Source: Deltaproteobacteria bacterium
GTDB lineage: Bacteria; Desulfobacterota; BSN033; WVXP01
Assembly (NCBI GenBank): GCA_019308905.1
Contig: JAFDHF010000002.1
Location: forward strand, 75,854 to 139,853
DNA: 64,000 bases
Reading direction: 5' to 3'
Position numbers and translations under genes: made by a program. This document shows positions 2,676-18,658 of the stretch, piece by piece. Under the pieces are notes generated by a model that was not told where the DNA came from, did not search any database, and saw only the letters and a program-made list of their open reading frames with translations. Position 1 is the first letter of the stretch. Each line of letters starts with the position of its first letter.

Positions 2676-2710
2676 GGCCTGACATTCATGCACTCGGTCC
2701 AGAAAGGCGC

Positions 2711-2746
2711 AAGGGCCGTCAAGGACACCTATTGACGACGGCCCTT
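2711..2746 (+). other. perfect 10-bp GC-rich stem-loop (aagggccgtc / gacggccctt, 16-nt loop) between the substrate-binding-protein gene and the permease genes
   Basis: Inverted repeat read directly from the sequence. There is no U-tract after it. Confidence 0.4.
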
Positions 2747-2844
2747 ACCCATGTTCTCCCTTCCCCTCTCGCACCAGCCAGAAGGGGAGGGAGAACGGAT
2801 GCCCGGTCGGAGACCGGCCCAAGGAGCCTGGAGAGTTCTATGCC

Positions 2845-3789: not shown

Positions 3790-3797
3790 GACCCGCG

Positions 3798-4679: not shown

Positions 4680-4694
4680 GGATACGAGGAGATT

Positions 4695-5597
4695 ATGATG
4701 CTGAGACTGCCGAGGTTCGATTATGAGCGGCCGACGAGGTTGGACGACGCCATCGGATTGCTGGCCGACAGGGACGGAGATTCAAGGATTCTCGCTGGAG
4801 GAACCGACCTGATTGTGCAGATGAAGAAGGGCGTCTTGAACGCGGATCTCATCGTGGACATAAAGTCGATCCCTCAACTCGCGGAGATCTCTCTGGATCC
4901 GAAGGGAAACCTGGCCATAGGAGCCAACGTGACCCTTTCGGCACTCGAGGGTTGGATCACGACGGAAAGCAAATGGGCAGGCCTGCTGATGGCTGTGCGG
5001 ACCATCGGTTCCGAGCAGGTGCGCAACCGTGCCACCGTTGCCGGGAACATCTGCAGGGCCTCTCCTTCTGGAGACATGGCTCCCATGCTGATGGTCATGG
5101 ACGCGAAGGTGAAGATCAAGGGCCCCAATGGGTATCGAGCTCTTCCCCTGGATGGGTTTTTCGCGGGCCCCGGCCAAACCGTGCTCTCCCCCGGGGAGAT
5201 CGTAACGTCCATCCTGGTCCCCAAGCCTTCAGGGCGTTTCTCGGCCGTGTATCTGAAGCATGGAACCCGCCGCGCCATGGATCTCGCCATAGTCGGCACA
5301 GCCGTGAGTATCAGCATGGATGATAGCGGGAAGAACGTCCTCCAGGCGAGGATTGCCCTGGGGGCCGTGGCTCCCACACCCATAAGGGTTCCGGACGGGG
5401 AGAGGCTCCTCGTTCAAGAGGGATTCTCGGAGAGTGTCGTCCGGGAGATTGCTTCGATGGCGGCAGACCGCTCCCGGCCGATTACCGATATGAGGTCCAC
5501 GGACAGTTATAGGTACGAGATGGTGAAGGTCAATGTCAGAAGGGCGCTCGGGCAGGCTTGGGCCGGAGCAGCAAGCAGAGGGGAGAGGACTTCATGA
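4695..5597 (+). CDS. xanthine dehydrogenase / CO dehydrogenase family, FAD-binding medium subunit
   Basis: FAD-binding PCMH-type N-terminus (ILAGGTDLIVQMKKG) and a CO-dehydrogenase flavoprotein C-terminal domain. Confidence 0.85.
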   Translation: MMLRLPRFDYERPTRLDDAIGLLADRDGDSRILAGGTDLIVQMKKGVLNADLIVDIKSIPQLAEISLDPKGNLAIGANVTLSALEGWITTESKWAGLLMAVRTIGSEQVRNRATVAGNICRASPSGDMAPMLMVMDAKVKIKGPNGYRALPLDGFFAGPGQTVLSPGEIVTSILVPKPSGRFSAVYLKHGTRRAMDLAIVGTAVSISMDDSGKNVLQARIALGAVAPTPIRVPDGERLLVQEGFSESVVREIASMAADRSRPITDMRSTDSYRYEMVKVNVRRALGQAWAGAASRGERTS

Positions 5598-6067
5598 AAC
5601 CCATCGCTTTCCACTTGAACGGAGAGAAAGTCAGCATAGCCGTGGAACCCCATTGGACCCTCTTGCAGGTTCTAAGAGACGTCCTGCATCTGACCGGTAC
5701 CCATCGGGGATGTGAAACAGGGGACTGCGGCGCATGCACGGTGATCCTGGACGGCCTGGCCGTAAACTCCTGTCTGATTCTCGCAGTCGAGGTCGAAGGT
5801 AGGTCTGTAGTGACAATCGAAGGCCTTGCGAGAGAGGGGGAGTTGGACCCGGTTCAAAAGGCATTCGTGGACAGGGGGGCCATCCAGTGTGGATTCTGCA
5901 CCCCAGGGATGGTCATGGCTTCAAAGGCATTGCTCCAGAAAAACCCCTCGCCTACCAGGGAGGAAATCTCCTTCAGACTCGCGGGGAACATCTGTCGTTG
6001 CACGGGTTATACAAAAATCATCGAAGCCGTGATTGCGGCGTCCAAGACGGGGAATAGCCAGAAATGA
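5594..6067 (+). CDS. xanthine dehydrogenase family (2Fe-2S)-binding small subunit
   Basis: Plant-type ferredoxin cysteines (CETGDCGACTV) plus a second [2Fe-2S] motif (CGFCTPG, CRCTGY). Its ATG overlaps the upstream TGA. Confidence 0.85.
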   Translation: MKPIAFHLNGEKVSIAVEPHWTLLQVLRDVLHLTGTHRGCETGDCGACTVILDGLAVNSCLILAVEVEGRSVVTIEGLAREGELDPVQKAFVDRGAIQCGFCTPGMVMASKALLQKNPSPTREEISFRLAGNICRCTGYTKIIEAVIAASKTGNSQK

Positions 6068-8391
6068 AAGAGAATGTGACAGGGTATCACGTCGTCGGGA
6101 AGAGCGTGACGAGACTCGATGCTGTGGAAAAGGTGACCGGCCATGGAGAATACATCCCTGACCTCCATCGCCCAAACATGCTGCATGGTGCGATGCTGAG
6201 GAGCCCCATTCCCCACGGCAGGATCCTCGATGTCGACACGGCCCGGGCAAAACGCCTCCCCGGCGTGAAAGCCGTCATTACCGGGAGAGACATCCCGGAC
6301 ACCTTCCTGGGGTTCCAGATCGCGCAGGCGAACAAGCGGCCCCTGTGTCTGGACAAGGTCCGTTACGTGGGAGATGAGATAGCCGCCGTTGCCGCCGAAA
6401 GCGAAGAAACAGCCAGGGAGGCCTGTTCCCTGATCAGAGTTCAGTTCGAACCCCTTCCCGCTGTCTTCGATCCAGAATCCTCATTGGAACCCGAGGCGCC
6501 GCTCGTTCATGAGGACAAGCCAAGAAACATCTCCGGAGAGGTTCACAAGGTTTTCGGAGACGTCGAAGAGGGCTTTGCAAGGGCCTTCCGTGTTTTTGAG
6601 TCGACTTTCAGGACAACAGGTGTTGCCCACTGCTGTATGGAGACACGGGGCGCCTTGGCTGAGTTCGACATGCAAGGGCGGGTCACACTCTGGTCTACGA
6701 CCCAGTTTCCCCATGTTCTCCGGGATATCATGTCTCGGGTGCTCGACATGCCTGTCGGAAAGATTCGCGTGCGCAAGGCTTTCATCGGCGGAGGATTCGG
6801 GAGCCGCCAGTCGATGGATTCGGTGGATCCGGTCTGTGTCTTGCTGGCCCAGAAAACCGGGAGACCCGTCAGGATCGTCAAGACCAGACCAGAGGAGCTG
6901 GTATCGGACCGGATCCGCTATCCAATGATAATCAAGCTCAAGACCGGCGTCAAAGAAACGGGAGAACTCCTGGCCAGAAAGGTGGAAATCCTTACGGACG
7001 GCGGCGCTTACAATGATCAGGGACTCGCCGTGACAACCAGCGCGGGCTCGAAGATCACCGGTCTCTATCGTGTCCCAAACGTGGAGATCGACGGCATGGT
7101 GGTGTTCACCAATAAGGTCTGGGGCGGGGCTTTCCGCGGTTACGGCAATCCCCAAATCACCTTTGCCATCGAATCGCAGATGGATGAAATCGCAGAAGAG
7201 CTGGGGATGGGGAAACTCGAGCTCCGGCTCCTCAACGCCAACAGGCAGGGTGATGTGACCGTTGCAGGAGCGAGATACGTGAGCTGCGGCTTTACCGAAT
7301 GCCTCGAAAAGAGCACGGCCGCGGCAGGCTGGAAGGACGGGGAAAAAACAAAGCACGAAGTCGGGAAGGGCCCGAAGCTCCGCGGGATGGGAATGGCAGG
7401 GATGATCCATACAGGGGGCGGGGGTATCAGCGCCCACGGCGGCAATTTCTCGTCGGCCTTCATCAAGGTCGAGGAAGACGGGTCCGTGGATCTGCTGACC
7501 GGCGTTCCGGATGTCGGGCAGGGCTCTGACACTGTCCTCGCACAGATCGCCGCAGAGGAAATTGGCGTCTCCATGGAGGCCATGAGAATCCACGCAGGGG
7601 ACACGGCCATCACCCCCTCGACCCAGGGCGTTCGGGGATCACGGGAGACATTCGTGGCCGGCAACGCCGTCAGAATCGCCGCGAGGAAGGCGAAAGACGA
7701 ACTCCTGAAAAGGGGTTCTTCCATGCTGGGAGTGGGAAAAGAAGAACTCGAGGTGGCAGATGGGAGAATCTACGTGAGATCGAATCCCGGCAGATACGTC
7801 ACCGTTGCCCAGGCCGCCGCGTTGCCCATGTTTGACCGGGCCTCCGCCTTTCCCATGGGGGTGCCCGTCGTAGCAAGCAGCTGCTATGTGGACCCGGTGA
7901 GCAAGCCCTCTGACCGTGAAACCGGGTACGGGAACATCTGCCCCACCTGGGTGTTCGGGGCCCAGGTAGCAGAGGTCGAAGTCGATCGTGAAACAGGACA
8001 GGTGACCGTCATACGGGTGATTGCGGCTCACGATGTGGGAAAAGCGATAAATCCCTGTGCCGTCGAGGGGCAGTTCGAAGGGGCGATCGTTCAGGGCATA
8101 GGAATGGCTCTCTCTGAGAGGATCATCTGGCAGGATGGAGCGGTGGCGAACCGGTACCTCGGGGACTACAAGCTCCCCACTACTATGGACACTCCTGGTA
8201 TAGAGACCATTCTTGTCGAGACGAATGACCCTTACGGGCCGTTCGGGGCCAAGGGTGTGGGAGAGGCGGCCATAGTTCCCACGGCCGCTGCCATAGCGAA
8301 CGCCGTTTACGACGCAACTGGTGTCAGGATCAGGGAACTGCCGATAACAGCCGAAAAAGTGCTAGCGGCTCTGAAGCAGAAAGGAGGCTGA
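6064..8391 (+). CDS. xanthine dehydrogenase / aldehyde oxidase family molybdopterin-binding large subunit
   Basis: 775 aa. Aldehyde-oxidase/xanthine-dehydrogenase a/b hammerhead domain and molybdopterin-binding domain. ATGA overlap with the FeS subunit. Confidence 0.9.
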   Translation: MKENVTGYHVVGKSVTRLDAVEKVTGHGEYIPDLHRPNMLHGAMLRSPIPHGRILDVDTARAKRLPGVKAVITGRDIPDTFLGFQIAQANKRPLCLDKVRYVGDEIAAVAAESEETAREACSLIRVQFEPLPAVFDPESSLEPEAPLVHEDKPRNISGEVHKVFGDVEEGFARAFRVFESTFRTTGVAHCCMETRGALAEFDMQGRVTLWSTTQFPHVLRDIMSRVLDMPVGKIRVRKAFIGGGFGSRQSMDSVDPVCVLLAQKTGRPVRIVKTRPEELVSDRIRYPMIIKLKTGVKETGELLARKVEILTDGGAYNDQGLAVTTSAGSKITGLYRVPNVEIDGMVVFTNKVWGGAFRGYGNPQITFAIESQMDEIAEELGMGKLELRLLNANRQGDVTVAGARYVSCGFTECLEKSTAAAGWKDGEKTKHEVGKGPKLRGMGMAGMIHTGGGGISAHGGNFSSAFIKVEEDGSVDLLTGVPDVGQGSDTVLAQIAAEEIGVSMEAMRIHAGDTAITPSTQGVRGSRETFVAGNAVRIAARKAKDELLKRGSSMLGVGKEELEVADGRIYVRSNPGRYVTVAQAAALPMFDRASAFPMGVPVVASSCYVDPVSKPSDRETGYGNICPTWVFGAQVAEVEVDRETGQVTVIRVIAAHDVGKAINPCAVEGQFEGAIVQGIGMALSERIIWQDGAVANRYLGDYKLPTTMDTPGIETILVETNDPYGPFGAKGVGEAAIVPTAAAIANAVYDATGVRIRELPITAEKVLAALKQKGG

Positions 8392-8397
8392 GAGGCT

Positions 8398-9129
8398 GTG
8401 GAAGCACGTCTTTGTCGAAAATTGCAGGATACGCTCTGCCTTGAGAAAAAACCCGTGGTCGTTGCCCTCTCCGACCGCTCTCCCGAGGGGGTGGAAAGAT
8501 TCAAAGGCGAGCAAAAGGCCTGCGAGTTTATCGATACGGTCCGTGAGGAGGATCGCCCCTTTTACACGACCCTGGAAAACCAGTCTTGCAGAAACGGCAA
8601 CTACTATCTCGGGTTGGCTCCACCCTTCGAAGGGTTGATCACCGGTGAGCACAACGCCGGTGAAAACGGCCGCGGACTGGTCGGGTCCCCCGGAGCCTTC
8701 AGACGCCTCCTTTCGGGGTATGAGATCGTACCCACCGGTACTGTTTCCGTAATCACCTATGCTCCGTTGGATAGGGTTCCATTCTCGGACCGGTTCGGCG
8801 GGCAGGTGGTGGTCGTCAGCTGCCTGCCCAGACAGGCACTGCTGTTGTTGAGGGGTGCCAACTTCAGGACCGGCCACACCGTCCCCGGCTTGACGGGCCC
8901 ATCCACGTGCTCCAGCGTCATTGCGGCCCCCTTGCTCCGCGGTCAGGTCCACTACTCCCTGGGATGCTTTGGACTCAGGCTCTTCACCAAGATTCGAGAC
9001 GAAGAACTCGTTGTCGGCATCCCCCGGGAAGAGCTGGTGGAGGTGGTGGAAGGGTTGGAGCGGTTTCTCGAGGGGAGACCGGACTTGGGTGTCCAAGAAA
9101 AACAGAATAGGGAGACGGAACACGGCTGA
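8398..9129 (+). CDS. DUF169-family protein (uncharacterised archaeal-cluster-related protein, COG2043-like)
   Basis: About 240 aa, with a C-terminal SLGCFGLR motif resembling the conserved SLGCxGCR motif of DUF169. GTG start 6 nt after the molybdo-subunit stop. Confidence 0.5.
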   Translation: MEARLCRKLQDTLCLEKKPVVVALSDRSPEGVERFKGEQKACEFIDTVREEDRPFYTTLENQSCRNGNYYLGLAPPFEGLITGEHNAGENGRGLVGSPGAFRRLLSGYEIVPTGTVSVITYAPLDRVPFSDRFGGQVVVVSCLPRQALLLLRGANFRTGHTVPGLTGPSTCSSVIAAPLLRGQVHYSLGCFGLRLFTKIRDEELVVGIPREELVEVVEGLERFLEGRPDLGVQEKQNRETEHG

Positions 9130-9278
9130 TTGGAAAACGATGCGGCAGGACCGGTGAAATTCCATCACTTGTGGTTTCATGCACGGGATTCCGGCGTCTT
9201 TCCTGCGATTCGCCCCAGGTTGCATTTCTGGCTCTGTCCCTTGCTCCGACCGGGGGCGGGGATTTCTACTCCTAAGTC

Positions 9279-10259
9279 ATGGCCGAACTGCTAAGGATCA
9301 GCGAACTGAAAACCTATTTCTTCACGGACAAGGGTGTCATAAGGGCCGTGGACGGGGCGAGTCTCTCCCTCGACAAGGGAGATACCCTAGGTATTGTAGG
9401 TGAGTCCGGATGCGGGAAATCCGTGACTGCCCTGTCGGTCTTGAGACTGATTCCAAAGCCCGGGAGGCAGGTGGGGGGCACCATTGTTTTTGAAGGTGAG
9501 GATCTGGCGAAATTGGACGAATTGGAGATGCGCAGGATCAGGGGGAACAAGATATCCATGATCTTTCAGGAGCCCATGGCATCGCTCAATCCCGTCATCA
9601 AGGTGGGAGACCAAGTTGCCGAGGTGATCCAGCTCCACCAGCACCTATCCAAGAGGGACGCCCTCGAAAAAACCGTCCAGATGTTTCGCCTCGTGGGTAT
9701 TCCGGCACCTGAAGCCCGATTGAAGAACTATCCCCACCAGATGAGCGGCGGGATGCAGCAGAGGGTCATGATCGCAATGGCCCTTTCGTGCAATCCCCAC
9801 TTGATGATCGCCGACGAGCCCACGACGGCCTTGGATGTGACCATTCAGGCGCAGATTCTGGCCCTCATCAACACCCTCAAAGAACAGATCGGCATGTCTG
9901 TCATACTGATCACTCACGACTTGGGGATCGTGGCCGAAACGGCGCAGCACGTGGCGGTCATGTATGCGGGGAACGTGGTTGAGTACTGTGACGTCGTCTC
10001 CCTTTTCGAAGACCCATTGCACCCGTATACACGCGGTCTGCTGAACTCTATTCCCATGTCCACAAAGGGGCAGGGGCGCAAACAGAAACTCAGGGCGATT
10101 CCCGGTGTTGTACCGAACCTGCTGGAATTGCCGACCGGATGCAGGTTTCAGGATCGTTGCCTCTTGCGTTCAAGGCAGTGTCTTGAAAGCGAGCCGGAAT
10201 TGGTCGAACACAAACCAGGGCATCTTGTCAGATGTTGGAGGGCATCGGCCGATCGATGA
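9279..10259 (+). CDS. ABC transporter ATP-binding protein (DppD/OppD-like)
   Basis: Walker A (GESGCGKS), ABC signature (LSGGMQQR), Walker B, and an oligopeptide-type C-terminal extension. Confidence 0.9.
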
Positions 10260-11236
10260 AGGAACGGGAAGAAACCAGCCTGGTAGTCTTGAGGGACCTG
10301 AGAAAGCATTACCCGGTCCAGCACGGCCTTTTTTCGAGGACCCGGGCCGCGGTCAAGGCCGTCGACGGGGTCTCCCTTTCAATAATGAGAGGCGAAACAC
10401 TGGGGCTCGTCGGTGAAAGCGGATGCGGCAAATCCACCCTGGGGAGACTCATTCTGAGGTTTGAAGAACCTACAACAGGGAGTATCTACTTTGAAGGCCG
10501 GAACATCCTGGAGTTCGGCAGGAAGCAGATGAGGCATCTCAGGCGGGAAATGCAGATCATCTTTCAAGACCCCTTTTCATCCCTTGATCCGAGAAAGAAA
10601 GTCTCCAGTATACTGGCGGAGCCCTTCATTGTCCACAAGCTGGTCGCCAACAAAAGGGAGAGACAAGAGAAGGTTCTGAAACTGATGGAACTGGTGGGGC
10701 TGAGACCGGACCAGTCGAACCGCTATCCCCAGGAGTTCAGCGGCGGCCAGAGGCAGAGAATCGGAATAGCAAGGGCCCTGGCCCTGAATCCCAAACTGAT
10801 AATCGCCGATGAACCCATCTCCTCACTCGATCTTTCTATCCAAGCACAAGTCGTCAATCTGCTTGTGGATCTTCAGTTGAGGCTCGGGCTGACATATCTC
10901 TTTATCTCCCATGACCTGAGAGTGGTCCACCACGTAAGCGACAGGGTTGCGGTGATGTACCTCGGCAAGATCGTTGAATTGGCCGATGGAGAGACCCTGT
11001 ACAACGATCCTGTCCATCCATATTCGGAAGCACTCGTGGGATCCGCTCCTATTCCCAACCCGAAAGTGAAAAGGAAAAAGATCCTTCTTGAAGGAGACGT
11101 TCCGAGCCCGATCAACCCGCCTTCGGGATGCCGTTTCCACACGAGATGCCCCATACGAAAGGATCTCTGCTCAAGAGAGGACCCCCCCCTCGAACCGAGG
11201 GCAAACGGATCCATTGTGGCTTGCCATTTCAGATGA
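10232..11236 (+). CDS. ABC transporter ATP-binding protein (DppF/OppF-like)
   Basis: Walker A (GESGCGKST), signature (FSGGQRQR), and a cysteine-rich C-terminal region. Confidence 0.9.
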
Positions 11237-11277: not shown

Positions 11278-11306
11278 TTGACAAGAGAGTCCGCCCAGTA
11301 TATGAT
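11278..11306 (+). promoter_or_regulatory. sigma70-like promoter (TTGACA, 17 nt spacer, TATGAT) driving the riboswitch-btuB transcript
   Basis: Hexamers read directly from the sequence: TTGACA 11278-11283 and TATGAT 11301-11306. Confidence 0.5.
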
Positions 11307-11319
11307 ATGGGTGTGACAA

Positions 11320-11480
11320 GGTAAGCGGATGCTTTGGGTGTAGGGAAGACGGTTGGAAGCCGTCGCGGACCCGCCGCTGTGAGTGGGGACGAAAGCCACA
11401 CAGAGTGCCACTGTTCCGCGTGAGCGGAGCGGGAAGGCGTGGTGAGTAGGACGATCCACGAGCCAGAAAACCTGCCCAAG
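11320..11480 (+). ncRNA. cobalamin (adenosylcobalamin) riboswitch aptamer
   Basis: Contains GGGAAG...GGTTGGAAGCCG...CCCGCCGCTGTGAG...GCCACTG and the B12 box AGCCAGAAAACCTGCC (11461-11476). It lies upstream of a TonB-dependent receptor gene. Confidence 0.75.
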
Positions 11481-11533
11481 GCGTTTCTCCATGAAGATTC
11501 CTCGAGGAGTGGGAAAATGGAGTGGGCCAACAG

Positions 11534-11576
11534 AGAAAGCCTGATCTTCGTCGGGGATCAGGCTTTCTTTTTCTGA
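11534..11576 (+). terminator. intrinsic terminator / riboswitch expression-platform attenuator (agaaagcctgatc ... gatcaggctttct followed by a TTTTCT tract)
   Basis: 13-bp inverted repeat followed by a T-tract, between the aptamer and the btuB-like start codon. Confidence 0.6.
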
Positions 11577-11726
11577 AATCGCCGCCAACTCTCTCCTGTT
11601 GTCAAACTCCTCTGCCCGAATCTTCGACCGGTCGTACCCAGCCGGATGGTTCATCCGCCCTCAGTGGGAGGAATCTCTCCGGCTCCGTGCAGGACAGTGT
11701 AAAACTCGAAAAAGGAGGAACAGAAC

Positions 11727-13838
11727 ATGAAGCCATCGCACAACCCCACACGTCCGCCGAAATCGACGGCCCGACCCGCCCACCCTTCACGGCACGGCAG
11801 GAGTCCGAAATCCCTTGCAAGGGGCCTCCTGGCACTCGCCTGTGCAGGGAGCCTCGCGCTGGCCCTGGATTCCACACCCTCTCCGGCCCAGGAGCCCGAT
11901 GAGAAGTCGGAGGTCCCCGTACTTCGCGAGGTTGTCGTAACGGCGACGAGACGGCAGGAAGAGATCCGGAAGGTCCCGGGCAACGTCACCGTCATCACCG
12001 AGAAGGACATAGAGAACTGGGAGACGATGACCGTGGCCGATCTGCTCCGGTCACAGGAAGGGATCGTGGTGAGAGATCTCCTGGGAAACGGAAAGGCCGC
12101 CCAGGTGGACCTCCGTGGATTCGGGGAGACAGCGCCCTTCAACACCCTCGTCCTGGTTGACGGGAGACGGGTCAACGAGATCGATCTGAGCGGTGTCGAT
12201 TGGACCCAGATCCCTCTGGATCAGGTGGAGCGCTTGGAGATCGTCCGGGGCACCGGAAGCGTCCTGTACGGGGACAACGCGGTTGGTGGAGTGATCAATA
12301 TCATCACCAAATCCCCTGAGGGAAAACCTTCGGCCATGATCGGCGGCGTCGGCGGAAGTTACGGGCGCAACGGGGCCAAAGCCTCTGTCGGCGGCGGGAC
12401 CGAGAAAATCGCGGCCTCTTTGACCGGCAGCTATGACGCAACAAGCGGATACAGGGACAACGAAGACTTCCGGAGAGGGGATGTCGGAGGAAAGGTCATC
12501 TACGATGTGACCGACGCTATCAGCCTCAACCTTACCGGATCCTATCACCGTGACGAATACGGTCTGCCGGGCCCACTCACGGAAGCAGAAGTCGAGGTGG
12601 ACAGGCGGTCCACCAGCAGGCCCCTCGACAATGCCAGAACCAGGGACGGGTACCTGAAGCTCGGCACGGATTGGGATCTGGGAGAGTACGGGCGAATCGT
12701 GGCGGACCTCTCGTACAGGGACCGGAACAACAGGGACGAGTTCGTCAGCTATTCGTCGGCTTCGGATCGGGATACCGCAACCTGGGCCTTCACCCCTCGA
12801 TACATCTGGGACGGAGAGATCACGGACCGCCCAAACACCCTCACCGCAGGAATCGATATCTATGCATCCGACCTGGACGCGGATTTTTTCTTTGGAACGC
12901 CCCTTGCTCCCTCGGGCTTTTCCAGGATCGAAAAGGATTCCTACGGGTTTTATGCGAGCGATGAATTTTCCCTGTCCGACAACCTCATCCTTTCCCTGGG
13001 TGCCCGGCACGAAGAGGTCAAGTACGATCTCGAACAGGAGGATTTCCTCTTCGGCCTCGTCCCCCTGGATGAAACAGTGAAAGACTCTGCAAATGCATAC
13101 ACCGCAGGACTCACCCTCCTCTACGGCAAAGGATCCTCCGCCTTTGTCCGAGTCAACCAGAGTTTTCGATTTCCCCTCACGGATGAACTCGTCGTCTTTG
13201 ATTTCGTGAATACGGGAAGCATTCGGATAAATTCCGACATCAAGCCTCAGATCGGCCATCACCTCGATATAGGGGTGAGACACTTCTTCACCCCCGACGT
13301 GCAAGCCAACGTCACCCTCTTCCACGCGGAGATCGAGGACGAGATCTTTTTCAATCCGCTGACCTACACCAACGAGAACTATCCGGAAACCCTGCACCAG
13401 GGCATCGAGGTCGGAGCGAGGGCGCAACTGCTCAAGAAGATTACGGTTTTCGGAAACTATACCTACGAGAAGGCGACCTTCGAGAAGGGTTCCTTCAGCG
13501 GCAACGACATACCCGCCGTACCGAGACACAAGGCAAACCTCGGACTCAAGATCAGTGATTTCGCCCCTGGACTTACCTTCGCTGCCGACTACAACTACGT
13601 GGGCTCGAGCTACCTCATCAGCGACGTCGCCAACGATTCGTCCAAGCTCGATGCTTATTTCACGGTCAATGCCAGGCTCACCTACAACTGGAAATGGCTC
13701 AGGGCCTATGCCGGCGTGAACAACGCGACAGACGAAAAGTACTCCGAATACGGCGTGGTCTCAGGTTTCTCTCAGACCTCTTACTTCTATCCCGCCCCTG
13801 GAAGGAACTGGGTGGCGGGCATCGAGGCCAGCTTTTAA
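11727..13838 (+). CDS. btuB: TonB-dependent outer-membrane receptor, BtuB-like (probable corrinoid transporter)
   Basis: Signal peptide, TonB box (EVVVTAT), plug domain, 22-strand barrel ending in a C-terminal aromatic residue (…GIEASF), and a cobalamin riboswitch upstream. Confidence 0.85.
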   Translation: MKPSHNPTRPPKSTARPAHPSRHGRSPKSLARGLLALACAGSLALALDSTPSPAQEPDEKSEVPVLREVVVTATRRQEEIRKVPGNVTVITEKDIENWETMTVADLLRSQEGIVVRDLLGNGKAAQVDLRGFGETAPFNTLVLVDGRRVNEIDLSGVDWTQIPLDQVERLEIVRGTGSVLYGDNAVGGVINIITKSPEGKPSAMIGGVGGSYGRNGAKASVGGGTEKIAASLTGSYDATSGYRDNEDFRRGDVGGKVIYDVTDAISLNLTGSYHRDEYGLPGPLTEAEVEVDRRSTSRPLDNARTRDGYLKLGTDWDLGEYGRIVADLSYRDRNNRDEFVSYSSASDRDTATWAFTPRYIWDGEITDRPNTLTAGIDIYASDLDADFFFGTPLAPSGFSRIEKDSYGFYASDEFSLSDNLILSLGARHEEVKYDLEQEDFLFGLVPLDETVKDSANAYTAGLTLLYGKGSSAFVRVNQSFRFPLTDELVVFDFVNTGSIRINSDIKPQIGHHLDIGVRHFFTPDVQANVTLFHAEIEDEIFFNPLTYTNENYPETLHQGIEVGARAQLLKKITVFGNYTYEKATFEKGSFSGNDIPAVPRHKANLGLKISDFAPGLTFAADYNYVGSSYLISDVANDSSKLDAYFTVNARLTYNWKWLRAYAGVNNATDEKYSEYGVVSGFSQTSYFYPAPGRNWVAGIEASF

Positions 13839-13866
13839 CACCTCCAGTCCATGAAAGGGAAAAAAC

Positions 13867-14190
13867 ATGCCTGACACAGATCGAGAGGGAATCGAGGAAG
13901 TATTCGTCATCAAGACCGAGGAGATCGATTTTTTCGGTGCCCTGGTCAGGGAGAAAGGAGGGAAGTCGGCTGTCAGCGGCAGGGTCTGGTTCCGTGGCGG
14001 CACCAGGTGGTACTTCGCTTCACGGGGGGGCGAGCGGGGCGATCTGAGAGAGAGGCTGGCAGGGCTGTCCGAGAACGTGGCATCCCTTTACGGCACGCAC
14101 GTCTTCTGCCTGAAGTTCAGCCGGACCATGGACTACCGGGGATTCATCCGTCGATTGCGAGAAGCCAAACAGGCAATGGCCCGCGCATAG
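13867..14190 (+). CDS. small hypothetical protein (107 aa) co-transcribed with the btuB-like gene
   Basis: Good ribosome-binding site 28 nt after the btuB-like stop. No recognisable family and no transmembrane segment. Confidence 0.4.
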   Translation: MPDTDREGIEEVFVIKTEEIDFFGALVREKGGKSAVSGRVWFRGGTRWYFASRGGERGDLRERLAGLSENVASLYGTHVFCLKFSRTMDYRGFIRRLREAKQAMARA

Positions 14191-14198
14191 AAAAGGAC

Positions 14199-14939
14199 TC
14201 ACGGGTTCAAGGCAACCACAAGGCCGAGGGAAAGGACCTCGGACAGCTCATCCGCTGCTCCCAGGACGTCGCCCGTGATGCCTCCCAGTCTGTGGTGGAA
14301 GTAGAGACGAATCCCACGGCTCAACAGTACGTTGGCTGCCAGAACCGCCACTCCCTTAAGGCCGAACAGCCCCACCGCGGCTGCCAGGGCGGAAAAGGTG
14401 GAAACCACGATCTCTCTTCTGCCCACTCCCAGGGCAAAGGGGCGGGCGAGTCCTCCTTCTGGCCGAGCATAGGAGGAACCATGGATTACCTGGACCATGG
14501 ACCACCGGCCGAGGGTGGCCATCAGGATCAAGGAGCGGTCCAGGATCGACCAGGGAGTCTCTGCAATAAGGGTGAGCTTGAGGAGGAGAATGCACACCAG
14601 GCCCACGGCTCCAAAGGCCCCTACCCGGCTGTCCCGCATGATCCTGAGTCTCTCTTGCCTGGTCCTGCCGCTTCTCAGACCGTCGATCGTGTCCGAGAGG
14701 CCGTCCAGATGCAGCGCCCCCGTGACCAGCACAAGAGCCACCACCAGGAGCACCGCCACGACCCTCTGGGGGAAGAAGAGAAGGAACAGGTGCCTGGAAG
14801 CGACCAAAATCAGCCCGATGCAAAAGCCCACAAGGGGATAGTAGGCCATGGACCGCGCCATCTCCAGGTCGGAGAAGCCGGTGCGTCCCGGAACGGGGAT
14901 AACGGTAAGGAATCGGACTGCAGCCACGAATTCTCTCAT
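14199..14939 (-). CDS. cobS: adenosylcobinamide-GDP ribazoletransferase (cobalamin 5'-phosphate synthase)
   Basis: The MREFVAAVRFLTVIPVP N-terminus is typical of CobS, and the protein is polytopic. The true start is the internal ATG at 14937-14939, not the longer ORF listed in the track. Confidence 0.8.
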   Translation of the reverse strand: MREFVAAVRFLTVIPVPGRTGFSDLEMARSMAYYPLVGFCIGLILVASRHLFLLFFPQRVVAVLLVVALVLVTGALHLDGLSDTIDGLRSGRTRQERLRIMRDSRVGAFGAVGLVCILLLKLTLIAETPWSILDRSLILMATLGRWSMVQVIHGSSYARPEGGLARPFALGVGRREIVVSTFSALAAAVGLFGLKGVAVLAANVLLSRGIRLYFHHRLGGITGDVLGAADELSEVLSLGLVVALNP

Positions 14940-15475
14940 CCCTTGTCCTTTACGACCAAGGGGATCCCTGCAACCATCAGGACAACCCTGTCGGCCGCTT
15001 GGGCGACTCTCTGATTGAGCCTCCCTGCCAAGTCCCTGAAAGAACGGGCCAGCGGATTCTCGGGTACGACTCCCCACCCCACCTCGTTGGAAACCAAAAC
15101 TACGGGGATCTTTGTGGTCTTCAAAGACCCGACCAAGCCCTCGAGCCTCTCTTCCATGCCGTCCTTGTCCTCGCGGTAGGTCATCAGCAGGTTGGAAACC
15201 CATAGGGTGAGGCAGTCGATCAGGACCACGCTGTACCTGTCCTGAGCCTCGGAGAGGACCCTTGCGATCTCCAGCGGCTCTTCCCTGGTCTCCCACAGAT
15301 CTCCACGCTCACGCCTGTGATTCTCGATTCTTTCTGCCATCTCACGGTCGAGGGCCTGGGCCGTGGCGACGAAGAGTCTCTTCCCCTGAAAGGCCTCTCC
15401 TATCTCCCGGGCATACAGGCTCTTGCCGCTCCGGGCGGCCCCCAGTACGAGAATGACCCGAGGGGTGCCTCCCAT
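14936..15475 (-). CDS. cobU: bifunctional adenosylcobinamide kinase / adenosylcobinamide-phosphate guanylyltransferase
   Basis: P-loop (GAARSGKS) and CobU/CobP length. Its stop overlaps the cobS start (ATGA). A GGAGG ribosome-binding site precedes the ATG at 15475. Confidence 0.85.
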   Translation of the reverse strand: MGGTPRVILVLGAARSGKSLYAREIGEAFQGKRLFVATAQALDREMAERIENHRRERGDLWETREEPLEIARVLSEAQDRYSVVLIDCLTLWVSNLLMTYREDKDGMEERLEGLVGSLKTTKIPVVLVSNEVGWGVVPENPLARSFRDLAGRLNQRVAQAADRVVLMVAGIPLVVKDKG

Positions 15476-15513
15476 GGGGTCGCCTCCGGCTCTCCTGTCG
15501 TCTCCCATCTCCG

Positions 15514-16218
15514 CTACCTCTTCCACCCACCGAAGCGGGCCGCTCTCCCGCGGGAATCCCGGCCTCCCGGTGATTTATCTTCGCCCAGACGCGACCGAAT
15601 CCCGCTGGTAACCGCCTGTCTTACCGCTTGACCGATCAACGAGCCTATGGGAGTATGTTTCCCCGCATATCTCTCACCCCTTCTCCTCCATGGAGAAGCC
15701 ACTGCGATGCAGTCCGTACCCGTTCCCGTGGCGGGTCTTCCACTGACTCGACTCTTGAGGAGTGAATCCATGAAAGCGGCGGTTCGCGCCTCGGCCGCGA
15801 GGGAGACGACCTCAACCATGGCCCCCCTGGAGAGAGGCACGGAGACATGACACAAGAGATTGACGGTTCCGACTACCCCTCCTGTGCCGGGGGGATCCCC
15901 CACGGCAAGAGCGTTCGAGAGGCCAACCGTGGCGATACAGCCCACCGTCAGTGACCCGTCAGACCTTCTTACGTCCTGATATCCCTTCAGGTCGGTGCCG
16001 GTCATCATGCCCACGCCACAGGAAAGACGCGCCTCCTTGAGGCGCCTCCTCAGCAGACGAACCGGATCCACGTCCGGTCCCAGTTCCCCTTCTTTCACCT
16101 GCAGCCAGGCCAAGCTCCTGCTCTTTCTAAACCCGCCGCCCACGACGGCCCAGCTCAAGATCCGCATCTCCTCTCCGAACCGGACGACCAGGAACCGACC
16201 TCTTTTCTCGACAACCAT
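15514..16218 (-). CDS. cbiZ: probable adenosylcobinamide amidohydrolase (CbiZ family)
   Basis: About 230 aa, lying between cobD and cobU in a cobinamide salvage operon. The assignment rests on size, context and weak motif similarity. Confidence 0.5.
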   Translation of the reverse strand: MVVEKRGRFLVVRFGEEMRILSWAVVGGGFRKSRSLAWLQVKEGELGPDVDPVRLLRRRLKEARLSCGVGMMTGTDLKGYQDVRRSDGSLTVGCIATVGLSNALAVGDPPGTGGVVGTVNLLCHVSVPLSRGAMVEVVSLAAEARTAAFMDSLLKSRVSGRPATGTGTDCIAVASPWRRRGERYAGKHTPIGSLIGQAVRQAVTSGIRSRLGEDKSPGGRDSRGRAARFGGWKR

Positions 16219-16302
16219 AGAGCCGACCCCCTCTCGGCTTGACGATCCTGATCGGTCTGCCCCCGGGAACCGGAACAGGCCGGCAAGACCCTGGAGGATC
16301 CG

Positions 16303-17259
16303 TCAAGACAGAGCCGAAACCAACATAAGTGTCACCGCCACGGCCGCTACCATTGCCAGCGAAACACCGAACATGATTCCGATGCTTTCCCCGGCCCTCT
16401 GAACAGAGACGGGCTCAAAGGCCTTCCCGATGTAGGGTTTCTGAAGGACCTCCCCGAAATACACGGACGGCCCCCCGAGTCGAATCCCGAGTGCCCCTGC
16501 CACGGCTGCCTCGGGAAAGCCGGCGTTGGGACTCTCATGGTTCCTTCCTTCTCTCCAGGCGGTTTCCAGTGCCTTCTTCCAGTCTCTCCCGAGAACAAAG
16601 GAGACCCACACTATCAGAAGGGCCGTGATCCTGGAAGGCAGGAAGTTGGCCGCGTCGTCCAGCCTGGCCGAGGCCCATCCGAAATCGAGGTACCTGGAGT
16701 TGCGATACCCCACCATCGAATCGAGGGTGTTCACCGCCTTGTAGGCCAGGGCCAGAGCCGGCCCGCCTATTCCGAGGTAGAAAAGGGGAGCCACGATACC
16801 GTCGGAGGTATTCTCTGCAACCGTCTCCACAACCGCACGACAGATCTCCGAATCATCGAGATGCCGCGTGTCCCGGCTCACCAGCCCTGCCAGGCGCTTC
16901 CTGGCTCCCGTCGTGTCACCGGCCCCCAGGCGCTCGACCACACTCGAAGCCTCTCTGCCCAGGCTTCGCGTGGCGAGAGTAGTGTAAGCCAAAAAGATGG
17001 AGACCGCCACTCCCAATCTCCAGTCATAGCACCGTGCGAGCCTCAATGAACCTTCTGCAAGAACCCAGGTTCCACCCACGACCAGGCCTACCAGCACACA
17101 GCCCGCCCATTTCTTGCCTCTCTCGGTCAAACCCGGGCGCAAGAGCAGTCTCTCCGACAAAGCGATCCCCTTCCCCATCATCACGACCGGGTGGGGCAAC
17201 CACCTGGGATCACCGAAGATCAGATCGGCGAGGTAGGCGATAATGATCTGGCCGGTCAT
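16303..17259 (-). CDS. cobD: adenosylcobinamide-phosphate synthase (CobD/CbiB)
   Basis: Integral membrane CobD/CbiB signature (LIFGDPRWLPHPV...). ATGA overlap with the cobT stop. Confidence 0.85.
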   Translation of the reverse strand: MTGQIIIAYLADLIFGDPRWLPHPVVMMGKGIALSERLLLRPGLTERGKKWAGCVLVGLVVGGTWVLAEGSLRLARCYDWRLGVAVSIFLAYTTLATRSLGREASSVVERLGAGDTTGARKRLAGLVSRDTRHLDDSEICRAVVETVAENTSDGIVAPLFYLGIGGPALALAYKAVNTLDSMVGYRNSRYLDFGWASARLDDAANFLPSRITALLIVWVSFVLGRDWKKALETAWREGRNHESPNAGFPEAAVAGALGIRLGGPSVYFGEVLQKPYIGKAFEPVSVQRAGESIGIMFGVSLAMVAAVAVTLMLVSALS

Positions 17260-18323
17260 CCCTTCTTCCCGCTCACGCCCGCCTCCTCGAAGGTGGCCAT
17301 CTCGTTGTAAAGCCTCAGGGCCGCATCCACCAATTGGATGCCGAGAGCAGCCCCGGTTCCCTCGCCCAGCCGCATGGAGAGATCCAGCACCGGGCGGATG
17401 CCTATCCGGTCGAGCATGACCCTGTGGCCGATCTCGGCCGAACTGTGAGAAGCGAAAATGTAAGCCTTGATCCTGGGGTTCATCTCAGTGGCGATAAGAA
17501 TCCCGGCCGTGGAGATCAGCCCGTCGGCGACGACCGGAATGCGATTGGCGGAAGCCCCGATGGCGACACCCGTGATACCCGCGATCTCGAATCCCCCCAG
17601 TTTGGCCAAGACATCCAGAGGATCCCGAGGATCAGGCCTGTTCACACTGAGAGCCCTCTCCACGACCTCGATCTTCTTCTCCAATCCTCGGTCGTCGACA
17701 CCCGTACCCCTGCCCGTCACCTCTCTCGCGGGAAGACCGGCTACGGCGGCTATGATCGCACTGCTCGGCGTCGTATTGCCGATTCCCATATCGCCCACGC
17801 CGATGATGTCCACCCCTTCCCTTTTCACCTCTTCGACGATCTCGATTCCCGCCAGTACCGCCTCGAGGGCCTGCCTGGCTGTCATGGCCGGCCCCTTGGT
17901 GATGTTCGCCGTCCCCCTTGCCACCCTTCTTATGACCAGACCCTCGACAGGCTCGAAATCATGGTCTACACCCATATCAACCACGTAGAGACGGGCCCCG
18001 ATGAATCGGGCCAGAACACTTATGGCCGCCCCCTTGTGGAGAAAATTACGAACCATCTGGGAGGTCACCTCCTTGGGATAGAGGCTCACCTCCTCCTCGG
18101 CCACCCCATGATCCCCCGCGAGGATGAGGATGGTCTTGCGGTTGATCGCAGGTCGAAGCTCCTGCTTGACGGCCACGTAGTGCCTCACGAATTCCTCCAG
18201 GCGGCCAAGGCTCCCCCGGGGTTTTGTGAGACTGTCCAGGCGCTTCTGTGCTTCTTCCAGGAATTCATCCTTCAGGGGCTCGACCCGTGCCAGATACTCT
18301 TCTATTTTTTCCCGCAGTTCCAC
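17256..18323 (-). CDS. cobT: nicotinate-nucleotide--dimethylbenzimidazole phosphoribosyltransferase
   Basis: The CobT fold shows clear homology across its length (e.g. GDMGIGNTT). GTG start with an AAGGAG ribosome-binding site. Confidence 0.85.
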   Translation of the reverse strand: MELREKIEEYLARVEPLKDEFLEEAQKRLDSLTKPRGSLGRLEEFVRHYVAVKQELRPAINRKTILILAGDHGVAEEEVSLYPKEVTSQMVRNFLHKGAAISVLARFIGARLYVVDMGVDHDFEPVEGLVIRRVARGTANITKGPAMTARQALEAVLAGIEIVEEVKREGVDIIGVGDMGIGNTTPSSAIIAAVAGLPAREVTGRGTGVDDRGLEKKIEVVERALSVNRPDPRDPLDVLAKLGGFEIAGITGVAIGASANRIPVVADGLISTAGILIATEMNPRIKAYIFASHSSAEIGHRVMLDRIGIRPVLDLSMRLGEGTGAALGIQLVDAALRLYNEMATFEEAGVSGKKG

Positions 18324-18439: not shown

Positions 18440-18622
18440 CCCGATCGACATCCCTCTGCAGCAGGTCTTCTGGCTCTCGGATCTTCCTTTGGGCTGCGGC
18501 CTTCCCGTCAGGGTGAACCCTGGCAGTGACGCGAGACGGGCGATCGCCCGGCAGCCTTCAGTCCCCGATCACAGCGGCGGGACCGCCGCGGATTTCCACC
18601 GCGTTCCGGGATGCTGCAAGGG
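18440..18622 (-). ncRNA. cobalamin riboswitch aptamer (second copy, minus strand) leading the cobT-cobD-cbiZ-cobU-cobS operon
   Basis: The minus-strand RNA carries GGTGGAAATCCGCGG...CCCGCCGCTGTGA...GTCACTGCC and the B12 box AGCCAGAAGACCTGC. The core resembles riboswitch 1 (shared CCCGCCGCTGTGA...GGGGAC). Confidence 0.7.
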
Positions 18623-18630
18623 AAATTCAT

Positions 18631-18658
18631 CTTATGATGCTTTCCCGCTCCTTGTCAA
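18631..18658 (-). promoter_or_regulatory. candidate sigma70 promoter for the riboswitch-cob operon (TTGACA, 16-17 nt spacer, CATAAG/ATAAGA)
   Basis: Hexamers read on the minus strand. They overlap the 3' end of the convergent aldehyde dehydrogenase gene. Confidence 0.35.

What the first reader, a model, noticed from the sequence alone, without database searches (positions are those of the whole stretch)
11278..14190. Cobalamin riboswitch with promoter and intrinsic attenuator controlling a BtuB-like TonB receptor plus an uncharacterised 107-aa co-transcribed ORF
A complete regulatory unit can be read directly from the sequence. It has -35/-10 hexamers at 11278-11306 and an aptamer with the B12 box AGCCAGAAAACCTGCC at 11461-11476. 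A canonical terminator hairpin with T-tract lies at 11534-11576. These precede a TonB-dependent receptor with a TonB box. The small ORF that follows 28 nt downstream has a good ribosome-binding site and no known family. It could be an accessory corrinoid-binding or delivery factor.
Basis: partly seen in the sequence, partly recalled or inferred. Interest (0 to 1): 0.5.

Follow-up and report, generated by a model that had tools for sequence, protein, structure and literature searches.

The report
B12 riboswitch operon with unknown protein
A vitamin-B12-sensing RNA switch with a terminator controls an outer-membrane uptake receptor and a 107-residue protein, and that protein belongs to an unannotated family that sits behind a B12 riboswitch in every related locus that could be checked.

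Summary

- **Aptamer:** RF00174 matches 11319-11493 at 99.3 bits (gathering score 31.5) and includes the B12 box.
- **Promoter:** TTGACA-17-TATGAT ends 13 nt upstream of the aptamer.
- **Terminator:** an 18-bp hairpin with a U-tract (-25.9 kcal/mol) follows at 11532-11576.
- **Receptor:** the 703-aa ORF has Plug and barrel domains and a TonB box, but falls well below the BtuB equivalog cutoffs. Corrinoid specificity therefore rests on context.

The riboswitch-receptor unit is ordinary. The 107-aa ORF is the interesting part.

- **Real gene:** dN/dS is 0.10-0.26.
- **Unannotated family:** about 80 representatives among 1.84 billion proteins. Named sources are all Desulfobacterota. Pfam, NCBIfam, PHROGs and PDB give no match.
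- **Riboswitch link:** all 16 loci with enough upstream DNA (at least 11 lineages, six operon layouts) carry a same-strand cobalamin aptamer plus terminator. In four lineages the small ORF is the only gene controlled.
- **Fold:** confident prediction (pLDDT 85-88) with only a weak WGR-like resemblance.
- **C-terminus:** about 70% of members end in Asn, His or Gln.

The protein's function is unknown. I favour a cytoplasmic, B12-starvation-induced binding protein.

The parts
11278..11306 (+). Sigma-70-type promoter, TTGACA (11278-11283), 17-nt spacer, TATGAT (11301-11306). The predicted transcription start is near 11313.
   Evidence: 11 of 12 positions match, but 1.1 such sites are expected by chance in the region. 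TTGACA-17-TATATA aligns with it in L007.
11319..11493 (+). Cobalamin riboswitch aptamer (RF00174), full length.
   Evidence: 99.3 bits against a gathering score of 31.5, E = 1.3e-23, model positions 1-189; the aptamer core is nearly invariant in L001 and L007.
11461..11476 (+). B12 box, AGCCAGAAAACCTGCC.
   Evidence: it aligns with the Rfam consensus AGCCAGGAGACCuGCC.
11479..11488 (+). Candidate antiterminator strand GGCGUUUCUC. It overlaps the 3' strand of P1 and can pair with GAGAAAGCC at 11533-11541 in the 5' arm of the terminator. This is inferred.
   Evidence: (RNAduplex, about -13.7 kcal/mol) plus inspection. The pairing is not clearly conserved in L001 or L007.
11483..11527 (+). Conserved hairpin between aptamer and terminator. 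It may be a P13-type element; its role was not established.
   Evidence: consensus structure of four orthologous leaders; the hairpin appears in the minimum-free-energy folds.
11532..11576 (+). Intrinsic terminator: stem-loop 11532-11570 followed by a U-tract. This is the expression platform.
   Evidence: -25.9 kcal/mol, z = -4.6; all stem differences in the orthologues keep pairing, mostly through G-U; an equivalent hairpin plus U-tract follows the aptamer in all 16 loci analysed.
11714..11718 (+). Shine-Dalgarno GGAGG, 8 nt upstream of the receptor ATG.
   Evidence: conserved in L001, with a GAAGGAGG variant in L007.
11727..13838 (+). TonB-dependent outer-membrane receptor, 703 aa. It is a presumed corrinoid transporter. 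The TonB box REVVVTA lies at about 11925-11945.
   Evidence: Plug and barrel domains; the best solved relative is E. coli BtuB, E = 4e-22, over the plug only; below the BtuB equivalog cutoffs.
13855..13860 (+). Ribosome-binding site AAGGGA for the small ORF.
   Evidence: AGGAG-like sites sit at the same position in all homologous loci.
13867..14190 (+). 107-aa cytoplasmic protein (NCBI MBW2056136.1, 'hypothetical protein JRH07_02065'). It belongs to an unannotated protein family linked to the B12 riboswitch.
   Evidence: the family; dN/dS 0.10-0.26; a riboswitch lies upstream in every informative locus; structure models with pLDDT 85 and 88; the accession.

Best explanation
This is a corrinoid-repressed, transcription-attenuating operon. 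Transcription starts about 6 nt upstream of a full-length cobalamin aptamer. When a corrinoid such as adenosylcobalamin binds, the aptamer with its P1 helix is stabilised. The downstream 18-bp hairpin and U-tract then form and stop RNA polymerase before the genes. When corrinoid is scarce, the 3' strand of P1 is free to compete with the 5' arm of the terminator, and transcription reads through.

Read-through expresses two genes. The first is a TonB-dependent outer-membrane receptor that most likely imports corrinoids. The second, 28 nt further on and on the same mRNA, is a 107-residue cytoplasmic protein.

The small protein is a genuine, selected gene and a core member of the B12-riboswitch regulon in Desulfobacterota. 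It keeps the riboswitch even where the receptor is absent. It has no conserved catalytic-type or metal-ligand residues. I therefore read it as a binding protein made only under B12 shortage. My estimates are:

- an intracellular corrinoid escort or trafficking factor, about 0.35
- a short-lived regulatory or adaptor protein that reports B12 starvation to other partners, about 0.3
- something else, the remainder

The conserved C-terminal residue probably serves as a docking or turnover signal.

Shown: the aptamer, hairpin, domains, conservation, selection and riboswitch linkage. Inferred: ligand response, the antiterminator pairing, co-transcription, the receptor's substrate and the protein's activity.
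For: - Aptamer: 99.3 bits, full-length match.
- Terminator: -25.9 kcal/mol, z = -4.6. It is kept in the orthologous leaders through pair-preserving changes.
- All 16 leaders analysed have a hairpin plus U-tract 40-60 nt after the aptamer.
- Receptor: Plug and barrel domains, and the best solved relative is BtuB.
- The locus converges on a second riboswitch-controlled corrinoid salvage operon, cobT-cbiB-cbiZ-cobU-cobS.
- Small ORF: seven non-self homologues at 53-74% identity, six of them of near-equal length; 84 representatives at E <= 0.001; dN/dS 0.10-0.26.
- A same-strand upstream RF00174 heads the gene string in the window, L001, L007, L019 (riboswitch, TBDR, ORF); L002, L004, L005, L018, L006, L021 (riboswitch, ORF); L009, L013 (riboswitch, 86-aa gene, ORF); L010 (riboswitch, CobN, ORF, TBDR); L012; and L014, L015 (riboswitch, glycine/sarcosine methyltransferase, ORF).
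- In L008 the ORF lies between a TBDR and a BtuF-type binding protein.
- Delta-proteobacterial genomes carry only 1-4 B12 elements each (PMC545781), so this linkage is far beyond chance.
- There is no signal peptide by inspection. The only invariant residue among 64 members is G38, and the conserved polar positions are E11 and R61.
Against:
- The antiterminator pairing is 9 bp with a bulge and is not clearly conserved in L001 or L007.
- The receptor fails the BtuB equivalog cutoffs, and its similarity to BtuB is confined to the plug, so its substrate could be another metabolite.
- Co-transcription of the small ORF is inferred from the 28-nt gap alone. An internal promoter in the 3' end of the receptor gene is not excluded.
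- Its partner genes vary widely. One is a glycine/sarcosine methyltransferase, which argues against a role tied narrowly to transport.
Confidence: 0.85

Rival explanations
1. The small protein is a short-lived regulator or adaptor that signals B12 starvation. The riboswitch sets its synthesis, a C-terminal degron sets its removal, and it acts on another protein or nucleic acid without binding corrinoid itself.
For: - In four lineages it is the only gene under the riboswitch, which fits an autonomous factor.
- Its partners are functionally unrelated: TBDR, CobN, a glycine/sarcosine methyltransferase, an 86-aa protein and a PF04071 protein.
- The weak but repeated fold resemblance is to WGR and Pur-alpha nucleic-acid-binding modules.
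- The last residue is strongly non-random: 35 N, 9 H and 4 Q among 68 members. The window clade ends A-x-A, which resembles an ssrA tag.
- From my own knowledge, not tested here: SulA's Lon degron ends in ...LYH, and ClpXP recognises ...LAA.
Against: - No known DNA- or RNA-binding motif was found.
- The degron reading is analogy only.
- No target can be named.
Confidence: 0.3
2. The small ORF is a chance ORF or annotation artefact in the 3' region of the receptor transcript, with no protein product.
For: - It is short, has no family match, and comes from a GC-rich genome where long spurious ORFs are common. Many such ORFs appear.
Against: - dN/dS is 0.10-0.26 over 14 pairs with saturated synonymous sites.
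- Length and reading frame are conserved down to about 25% identity.
- A ribosome-binding site is conserved.
- The structure prediction is confident and reproducible.
Confidence: 0.02
3. The receptor is not a corrinoid transporter but a siderophore or other metal-chelate receptor that happens to lie behind a cobalamin riboswitch. The small ORF would then be an accessory for that other substrate.
For: - The best NCBIfam hit by score is the generic siderophore-receptor model TIGR01783, at 180 bits.
- The BtuB equivalogs are missed by a wide margin.
- The barrel resembles FhuA and FecA as much as BtuB.
Against: - All NCBIfam models are below their cutoffs, including the siderophore ones.
- The gene is directly controlled by a B12 aptamer in four lineages.
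- It is flanked by corrinoid salvage genes and, in L008, by a BtuF-type binding protein.
- The small ORF keeps its B12 riboswitch without any receptor.
Confidence: 0.08
4. Control is mainly translational (ribosome-binding-site sequestration) rather than transcriptional.
For: - Many cobalamin riboswitches in Gram-negative bacteria, including E. coli btuB, act on translation (general knowledge).
- The 150-nt spacer after the terminator is structured in the minimum-free-energy fold.
Against: - The ribosome-binding site lies about 140 nt beyond the terminator and 220 nt beyond the aptamer.
- A canonical terminator is present in all 16 leaders.
- The spacer is poorly conserved.
Confidence: 0.1

Closest known systems
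E. coli / Salmonella btuB leader (cobalamin riboswitch, RF00174) and the riboswitch-controlled B12 transport loci of delta-proteobacteria (Rodionov et al. 2004, PMC545781)
   Same: An adenosylcobalamin-type aptamer with a B12 box lies upstream of a TonB-dependent receptor gene. The logic is OFF-switch, with repression when corrinoid is plentiful.
   Different: The expression platform here is a clear intrinsic terminator, with the ribosome-binding site far downstream. The receptor is not a BtuB equivalog by NCBIfam score. The operon carries an extra cytoplasmic 107-aa protein that is absent from the classical system.
Accessory B12-uptake proteins encoded next to btuB in Bacteroidetes (BtuG, BtuH; PMC8941943, PMC12751083)
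   Same: These are extra genes of initially unknown function embedded in riboswitch-controlled corrinoid-uptake operons.
   Different: Those proteins are surface-exposed lipoproteins with signal peptides. The protein here has no signal peptide, is much smaller and shares no detectable sequence family with them, since Pfam returns nothing. It also occurs alone behind a riboswitch.
WGR domain (PARP1-3; bacterial WGR_MMR_like / MolR)
Small cytoplasmic accessory genes of TonB-dependent uptake loci, such as HemP/HmuP of haem-uptake operons (recalled from general knowledge, not tested)
   Same: A small, soluble protein with no enzymatic signature is co-regulated with an outer-membrane receptor for a tetrapyrrole.
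   Different: There is no sequence relationship. The substrate and the regulator differ (Fur/Irr there, a riboswitch here).

Membership tests
Cobalamin riboswitch (Rfam RF00174) | Covariance-model score at or above the curated gathering score, over the whole model | tested here: met
   99.3 bits against 31.5, E = 1.3e-23, model positions 1-189, not truncated.
Cobalamin riboswitch (Rfam RF00174) | Conserved B12 box (rAGYCMGgAgaCCkGCc) | tested here: met
   AGCCAGAAAACCTGCC at 11461-11476 aligns with the consensus and is invariant in L001 and L007.
Cobalamin riboswitch (Rfam RF00174) | An expression platform that couples the aptamer to gene expression | tested here: met
   A terminator hairpin plus U-tract begins 39 nt after the aptamer. 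The same layout occurs in 16 of 16 related leaders. The alternative antiterminator pairing is only a candidate.
Cobalamin riboswitch (Rfam RF00174) | Direct corrinoid binding and ligand-dependent repression | not testable with these tools
   Needs in-line probing, ITC, or transcription-termination and reporter assays.
TonB-dependent receptor superfamily | N-terminal Plug domain, 22-strand barrel domain and a TonB box | tested here: met
   PF07715 at E = 9e-25 and PF00593 at E = 4e-45; residues 69-73 (VVVTA of REVVVTA, 67-73) align with the BtuB TonB box.
BtuB vitamin B12 receptor (NCBIfam equivalogs TIGR01779, NF007926) | Score at or above the equivalog cutoff | tested here: not met
   147.9 bits against 599.7, and 107 against 836. 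The match covers the plug region only. The receptor is not filed as BtuB; it is read as working like BtuB from its context.
BtuB vitamin B12 receptor (NCBIfam equivalogs TIGR01779, NF007926) | Corrinoid transport | not testable with these tools
   Inferred from the riboswitch upstream and from neighbouring corrinoid salvage and BtuF-type genes.
Any curated protein family, for the 107-aa ORF (Pfam-A, NCBIfam, PHROGs, PDB sequences) | A significant profile match | tested here: not met
   no match; 0 of 64 members match any Pfam family above noise; no PHROGs match; best PDB profile hit has E = 1.3.
WGR domain | Fold match at a convincing level, plus the W-G-R sequence signature | tested here: inconclusive
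Periplasmic or surface B12-binding accessory proteins (BtuF, BtuG, BtuH type) | A signal peptide or lipobox and the corresponding domain | tested here: not met
   The N-terminus MPDTDREGIEEVFVIK is acidic and has no hydrophobic h-region. No Peripla_BP_2 or other domain is found.

The most novel reading that the evidence does not exclude
The 107-aa protein defines a previously undescribed protein family that, among named sources, is found only in Desulfobacterota. The family is an obligate part of the adenosylcobalamin-riboswitch regulon. It has its own alpha/beta fold and a conserved C-terminal hydrophobic-Asn/His/Gln signature. It would act as a new kind of intracellular B12-starvation factor: either a bacterial corrinoid escort or a riboswitch-driven, protease-timed regulator that extends B12 control to genes lacking a riboswitch.
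Probability: 0.45. Interest if true: 0.65.

Novelty: new variant of a known kind. Interest (0 to 1): 0.5.

Why it matters
The riboswitch-receptor unit adds only one more instance of a well-understood control circuit.

The small protein matters more. A conserved protein with no annotation stays behind a B12 riboswitch through six different operon layouts, and is sometimes the only regulated gene. That makes it a well-defined candidate for a missing step in bacterial corrinoid handling after uptake, or for a protein relay of riboswitch signals. Little is known about how anaerobes allocate scarce corrinoids inside the cell. This organism also encodes pyrrolysine-containing, corrinoid-dependent methylamine methyltransferases, so its demand for B12 is probably high. 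The family is small and easy to express, which makes the question directly testable.

Tried and rejected
- **Terminator scan:** the simple scan did not report the leader hairpin. Direct folding shows it clearly, so the scan was a false negative.
- **Distant loci:** The search for related loci failed with the broader alignments A2 and A3 because no stretch was conserved enough. The narrow A1 alignment returned only 2 genome loci and 5 metagenome loci. Distant contexts therefore came from the look-up of encoding contigs instead.
- **AlphaFold database:** afdb50 was unavailable, so no AlphaFold-database neighbours were checked.
- **Other libraries:** the PDB profile search, Foldseek against PDB, Foldseek against BFVD and PHROGs all gave nothing significant.
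- **Long repeat proteins:** a few long repeat proteins in the representative search (P0052, P0073 and others) match only a beta-hairpin segment. I set them aside as repeat noise.
- **Paralogues:** tblastn of the whole family against the window finds only the one copy.
- **Literature:** three searches and one paper turned up no description of this family. Absence from the held library is not proof of absence.
- **Secreted-protein idea:** I rejected a periplasmic or surface B12-binding role for the small ORF because it has no signal peptide.
- **RNA-element idea:** I rejected a non-coding RNA role for the ORF region because dN/dS shows protein-level selection.
Full report
**Source.** The window comes from a metagenome-assembled Deltaproteobacteria (Desulfobacterota) genome. 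The small ORF is identical to NCBI MBW2056136.1, 'hypothetical protein JRH07_02065'.

Yes. A scan of the whole window with Rfam at gathering thresholds finds RF00174 (Cobalamin) at 11319-11493 on the + strand. It scores 99.3 bits against a threshold of 31.5, with E = 1.3e-23, and matches the full model from position 1 to 189. The B12 box AGCCAGAAAACCTGCC lies at exactly 11461-11476.

One site is what shuffled sequence yields (mean 1.1), so the match alone proves nothing. Two things make it credible. It ends 13 nt upstream of the aptamer, and in the orthologous leader L007 a TTGACA-17-TATATA aligns with it.

The hairpin at 11532-11570 folds with an 18-bp stem at -25.9 kcal/mol, against a shuffle mean of -13.4. 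That gives z = -4.6, and 0 of 200 shuffles fold as well. It is followed by UUUUUCU. The simple terminator scan missed it, which I treat as a false negative.

**2. The leader as a mechanism**

The leaders of the window, L001, L007 and L019 align well through the aptamer, a conserved intervening hairpin (window 11483-11527) and the terminator. Similarity falls off in the roughly 150 nt between the terminator and the start codon. All differences in the terminator stem keep pairing, mostly through G-U. With only four sequences, two of them nearly identical, the covariation support is modest.

A candidate antiterminator exists in the window. GGCGUUUCUC (11479-11488) overlaps the 3' strand of P1 and can pair with GAGAAAGCC (11533-11541) in the 5' arm of the terminator (and inspection). 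That would make P1 formation and terminator formation mutually reinforcing, as in classical OFF switches. The pairing is not clearly conserved in L001 or L007, so I mark it as inferred.

In every one of the 16 related leaders I analysed, a strong hairpin (-13.5 to -31 kcal/mol) with a U-tract lies 40-60 nt after the aptamer. Transcription attenuation is therefore the shared design.

**3. The receptor**

ORF 11727-13838 (703 aa) has a Plug domain and a TonB-dependent barrel. Its residues 69-73 (VVVTA, within REVVVTA 67-73) align with the TonB-box region of E. coli BtuB, which is its best solved relative at E = 4e-22. That alignment covers only the plug, and CirA follows closely at 6e-20.

Against NCBIfam it reaches no curated cutoff. 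It scores 147.9 against 599.7 for TIGR01779 and 107 against 836 for NF007926, and the siderophore models are also below threshold. Membership of the TBDR superfamily is met; membership of the BtuB equivalog is not.

That the receptor works like BtuB follows from its context:
- the aptamer directly upstream, in four lineages
- the convergent corrinoid salvage and remodelling operon cobT-cbiB-cbiZ-cobU-cobS, which is itself headed by a second RF00174 at 18443-18633 on the minus strand
- a BtuF-type binding protein downstream in L008

**4. The small ORF is a real gene and follows the riboswitch**

ORF 13867-14190 starts 28 nt after the receptor stop codon, behind an AAGGGA ribosome-binding site. 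It has seven non-self homologues at 53-74% identity. Six of them are 105-114 aa long, and the seventh is a 59-aa fragment. A profile search of 1.84 billion representative proteins finds 84 hits at E <= 0.001, nearly all single-domain proteins of 100-130 aa. Pairwise dN/dS among six orthologues is 0.10-0.26 with synonymous sites near saturation. This is a protein under purifying selection.

The named sources are all Desulfobacterota: Deltaproteobacteria bacterium, Thermodesulfobacteriota, Desulfosalsimonadaceae and Desulfobacterales.

I collected genomic context for every homologue on a usable contig and scanned each locus with Rfam.

| Loci | Layout |
|---|---|
| window, L001, L007, L019 | riboswitch, TBDR, ORF |
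| L008 | TBDR, ORF, BtuF-like gene (upstream end cut off) |
| L002/L004/L005, L018, L006, L021 | riboswitch plus terminator directly upstream of the ORF, with no receptor. In L021 the ORF is convergent with btuD and btuC. |
| L009, L013 | riboswitch, conserved 86-aa gene, ORF. L009 continues with a PF04071 cysteine-rich protein. |
| L010 | riboswitch, CobN, ORF, TBDR |
| L012 | riboswitch, secreted RHS/MORN-like repeat protein, ORF |
| L014/L015 | riboswitch, glycine/sarcosine N-methyltransferase (NF051855, 412 bits against a 350 cutoff), ORF, 67-aa gene |

All 16 loci with enough upstream sequence have a same-strand aptamer heading the gene string. At 90% identity they represent at least 11 lineages and six architectures.

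The loci without a same-strand upstream aptamer are all cut short upstream: L003, L008, L016, L017, L020 and L011. In L011 the contig ends inside the upstream methyltransferase, and an aptamer sits just downstream of the ORF, in front of a TBDR.

Delta-proteobacterial genomes carry only one to four B12 elements each (PMC545781). This association cannot be chance. The conserved partner of the small ORF is the riboswitch, not the receptor.

**5. What the protein looks like**

- **Known families.** No Pfam, NCBIfam or PHROGs family matches it or any of 64 relatives. A family profile finds nothing in PDB sequences.
- **Predicted fold.** AlphaFold2 gives a confident model that is reproducible with 8 and with 64 aligned sequences (pLDDT 85.3 and 88.3, pTM 0.74 and 0.76). 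It is a four-stranded antiparallel meander, a long helix, a fifth strand and a C-terminal helix.
- **Conserved residues.** Across 64 members only G38 is invariant. The conserved polar positions are E11 (88%) and R61 (70%), and the rest are core hydrophobics. There is no His or Cys motif and no signal peptide.
- **C-terminus.** Of 68 members of 95-160 aa, 35 end in Asn (19 in Leu-Asn), 9 in His and 4 in Gln. The 10-15 residues before that are variable. The window's own clade instead ends A-x-A (MARA, MAYA, MAHA, TAYA, VAYA, MTCA). I cannot explain this from the data. It suggests a docking or turnover signal. From my own knowledge, Lon recognises the ...LYH end of SulA and ClpXP recognises ...LAA ends, but that analogy was not tested.

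**6. How it most likely works**

When corrinoid is sufficient, the aptamer binds it, the terminator forms, and neither the receptor nor the small protein is made. When corrinoid is scarce, read-through produces both: the receptor, which brings corrinoids across the outer membrane, and the small cytoplasmic protein.

For the small protein I commit to a non-enzymatic binding role specific to B12 shortage. Two concrete versions are nearly equally likely:
- **Intracellular corrinoid escort (about 0.35).** This fits the TBDR, BtuF, BtuCD and CobN neighbours.
- **Short-lived regulator or adaptor (about 0.3).** This fits its stand-alone riboswitch units, its unrelated partners such as the glycine/sarcosine methyltransferase, the WGR-like fold and the C-terminal signature.

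A spurious ORF is excluded. A secreted B12-binding protein is very unlikely.

**7. Comparison with known systems, and novelty**

The riboswitch is a member of RF00174 on every testable criterion. The terminator is canonical. The receptor is a TBDR that probably does BtuB's job but is not a BtuB equivalog. All of that is ordinary.

The small protein belongs to no described family that I could find. Three literature searches and the delta-proteobacterial regulon paper do not mention it. I rate the finding as a new variant of a known kind: a standard B12 regulon with a conserved, uncharacterised, lineage-specific component.

**8. Limits**

- All functional statements about ligand response, co-transcription, receptor substrate and protein activity are inferences.
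- The AlphaFold database could not be searched.
- The survey of contexts is complete only for homologues on contigs that the tools could retrieve.

Noticed in passing
window 18443-18633 (-) and 14199-18323 (-): A second RF00174 cobalamin aptamer (67.2 bits) heads a minus-strand corrinoid salvage and remodelling operon, cobT-cbiB-cbiZ-cobU-cobS. That operon converges on the small ORF: the two stop codons are only 8 nt apart (14190 and 14199), with no canonical terminator between them. Only a weak hairpin lies at 14224-14242, so the two riboswitch-controlled transcripts may overlap antisense.
   Followed up: partly
window 54743-56197 (+) and 56255-57664 (+): Trimethylamine (MttB) and dimethylamine (MtbB) methyltransferase genes each carry an in-frame UAG, at 55724 and 57320. 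Both coincide with Rfam PYLIS_3 and PYLIS_2 hits (81.7 and 82.6 bits). A corrinoid protein (57747-58427, B12-binding domains) and a further uninterrupted MttB-family gene (58469-59953) follow. This Desulfobacterota MAG appears to use pyrrolysine and to have a high corrinoid demand.
   Followed up: partly
L014 116-2106 and L015 592-2582: In Desulfosalsimonadaceae/Desulfobacterales MAGs, a cobalamin riboswitch with a terminator precedes a glycine/sarcosine N-methyltransferase (NF051855, 412 bits, above its cutoff). The small-ORF homologue and a 67-aa gene follow. A betaine-synthesis enzyme is an unexpected gene to find under B12 control.
   Followed up: no
L009 7701-7961, L013 2132-2392, L016 1-213: A conserved 86-aa gene with no family match always lies immediately upstream of one subfamily of the small ORF, inside the same riboswitch-controlled unit. 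In L009 a PF04071 cysteine-rich 'zf-like' protein follows.
   Followed up: partly
Small-ORF family, C-terminus (window 14182-14187 for the window protein): The last residue is Asn in 35, His in 9 and Gln in 4 of 68 family members, usually after a hydrophobic residue, although the preceding tail is variable. The window clade ends A-x-A instead. This is unexplained.
   Followed up: partly
L021 122-322 (-) and 421-634 (+): Two divergent cobalamin aptamers lie back to back, 98 nt apart. One drives the small ORF, which is convergent with btuD and btuC.
   Followed up: no
L013 5473-5658 (-) and 5847-6053 (+); L009 14964-15153 (+): Further cobalamin aptamers cluster within a few kb of the small-ORF units. 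This suggests dense B12-regulated neighbourhoods in these genomes.
   Followed up: no
window 1152-11236 (+): Upstream of the riboswitch lies an Opp/Dpp/Nik-type ABC transporter: a family 5 solute-binding protein, 300-aa-class ORFs not scanned (possibly permeases), and two ATPases with oligo_HPY domains. A xanthine-dehydrogenase-family molybdoenzyme (6064-8391) and a DUF169 protein (8398-9129) are interleaved with it. No riboswitch precedes the transporter, and its substrate was not examined.
   Followed up: no
L010 7817-7960: A 47-aa ORF lies between CobN and the small-ORF homologue. By eye it resembles the C-terminal end of electron-transfer flavoprotein alpha. It may be a gene fragment or an error in a long-read assembly.
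   Followed up: no
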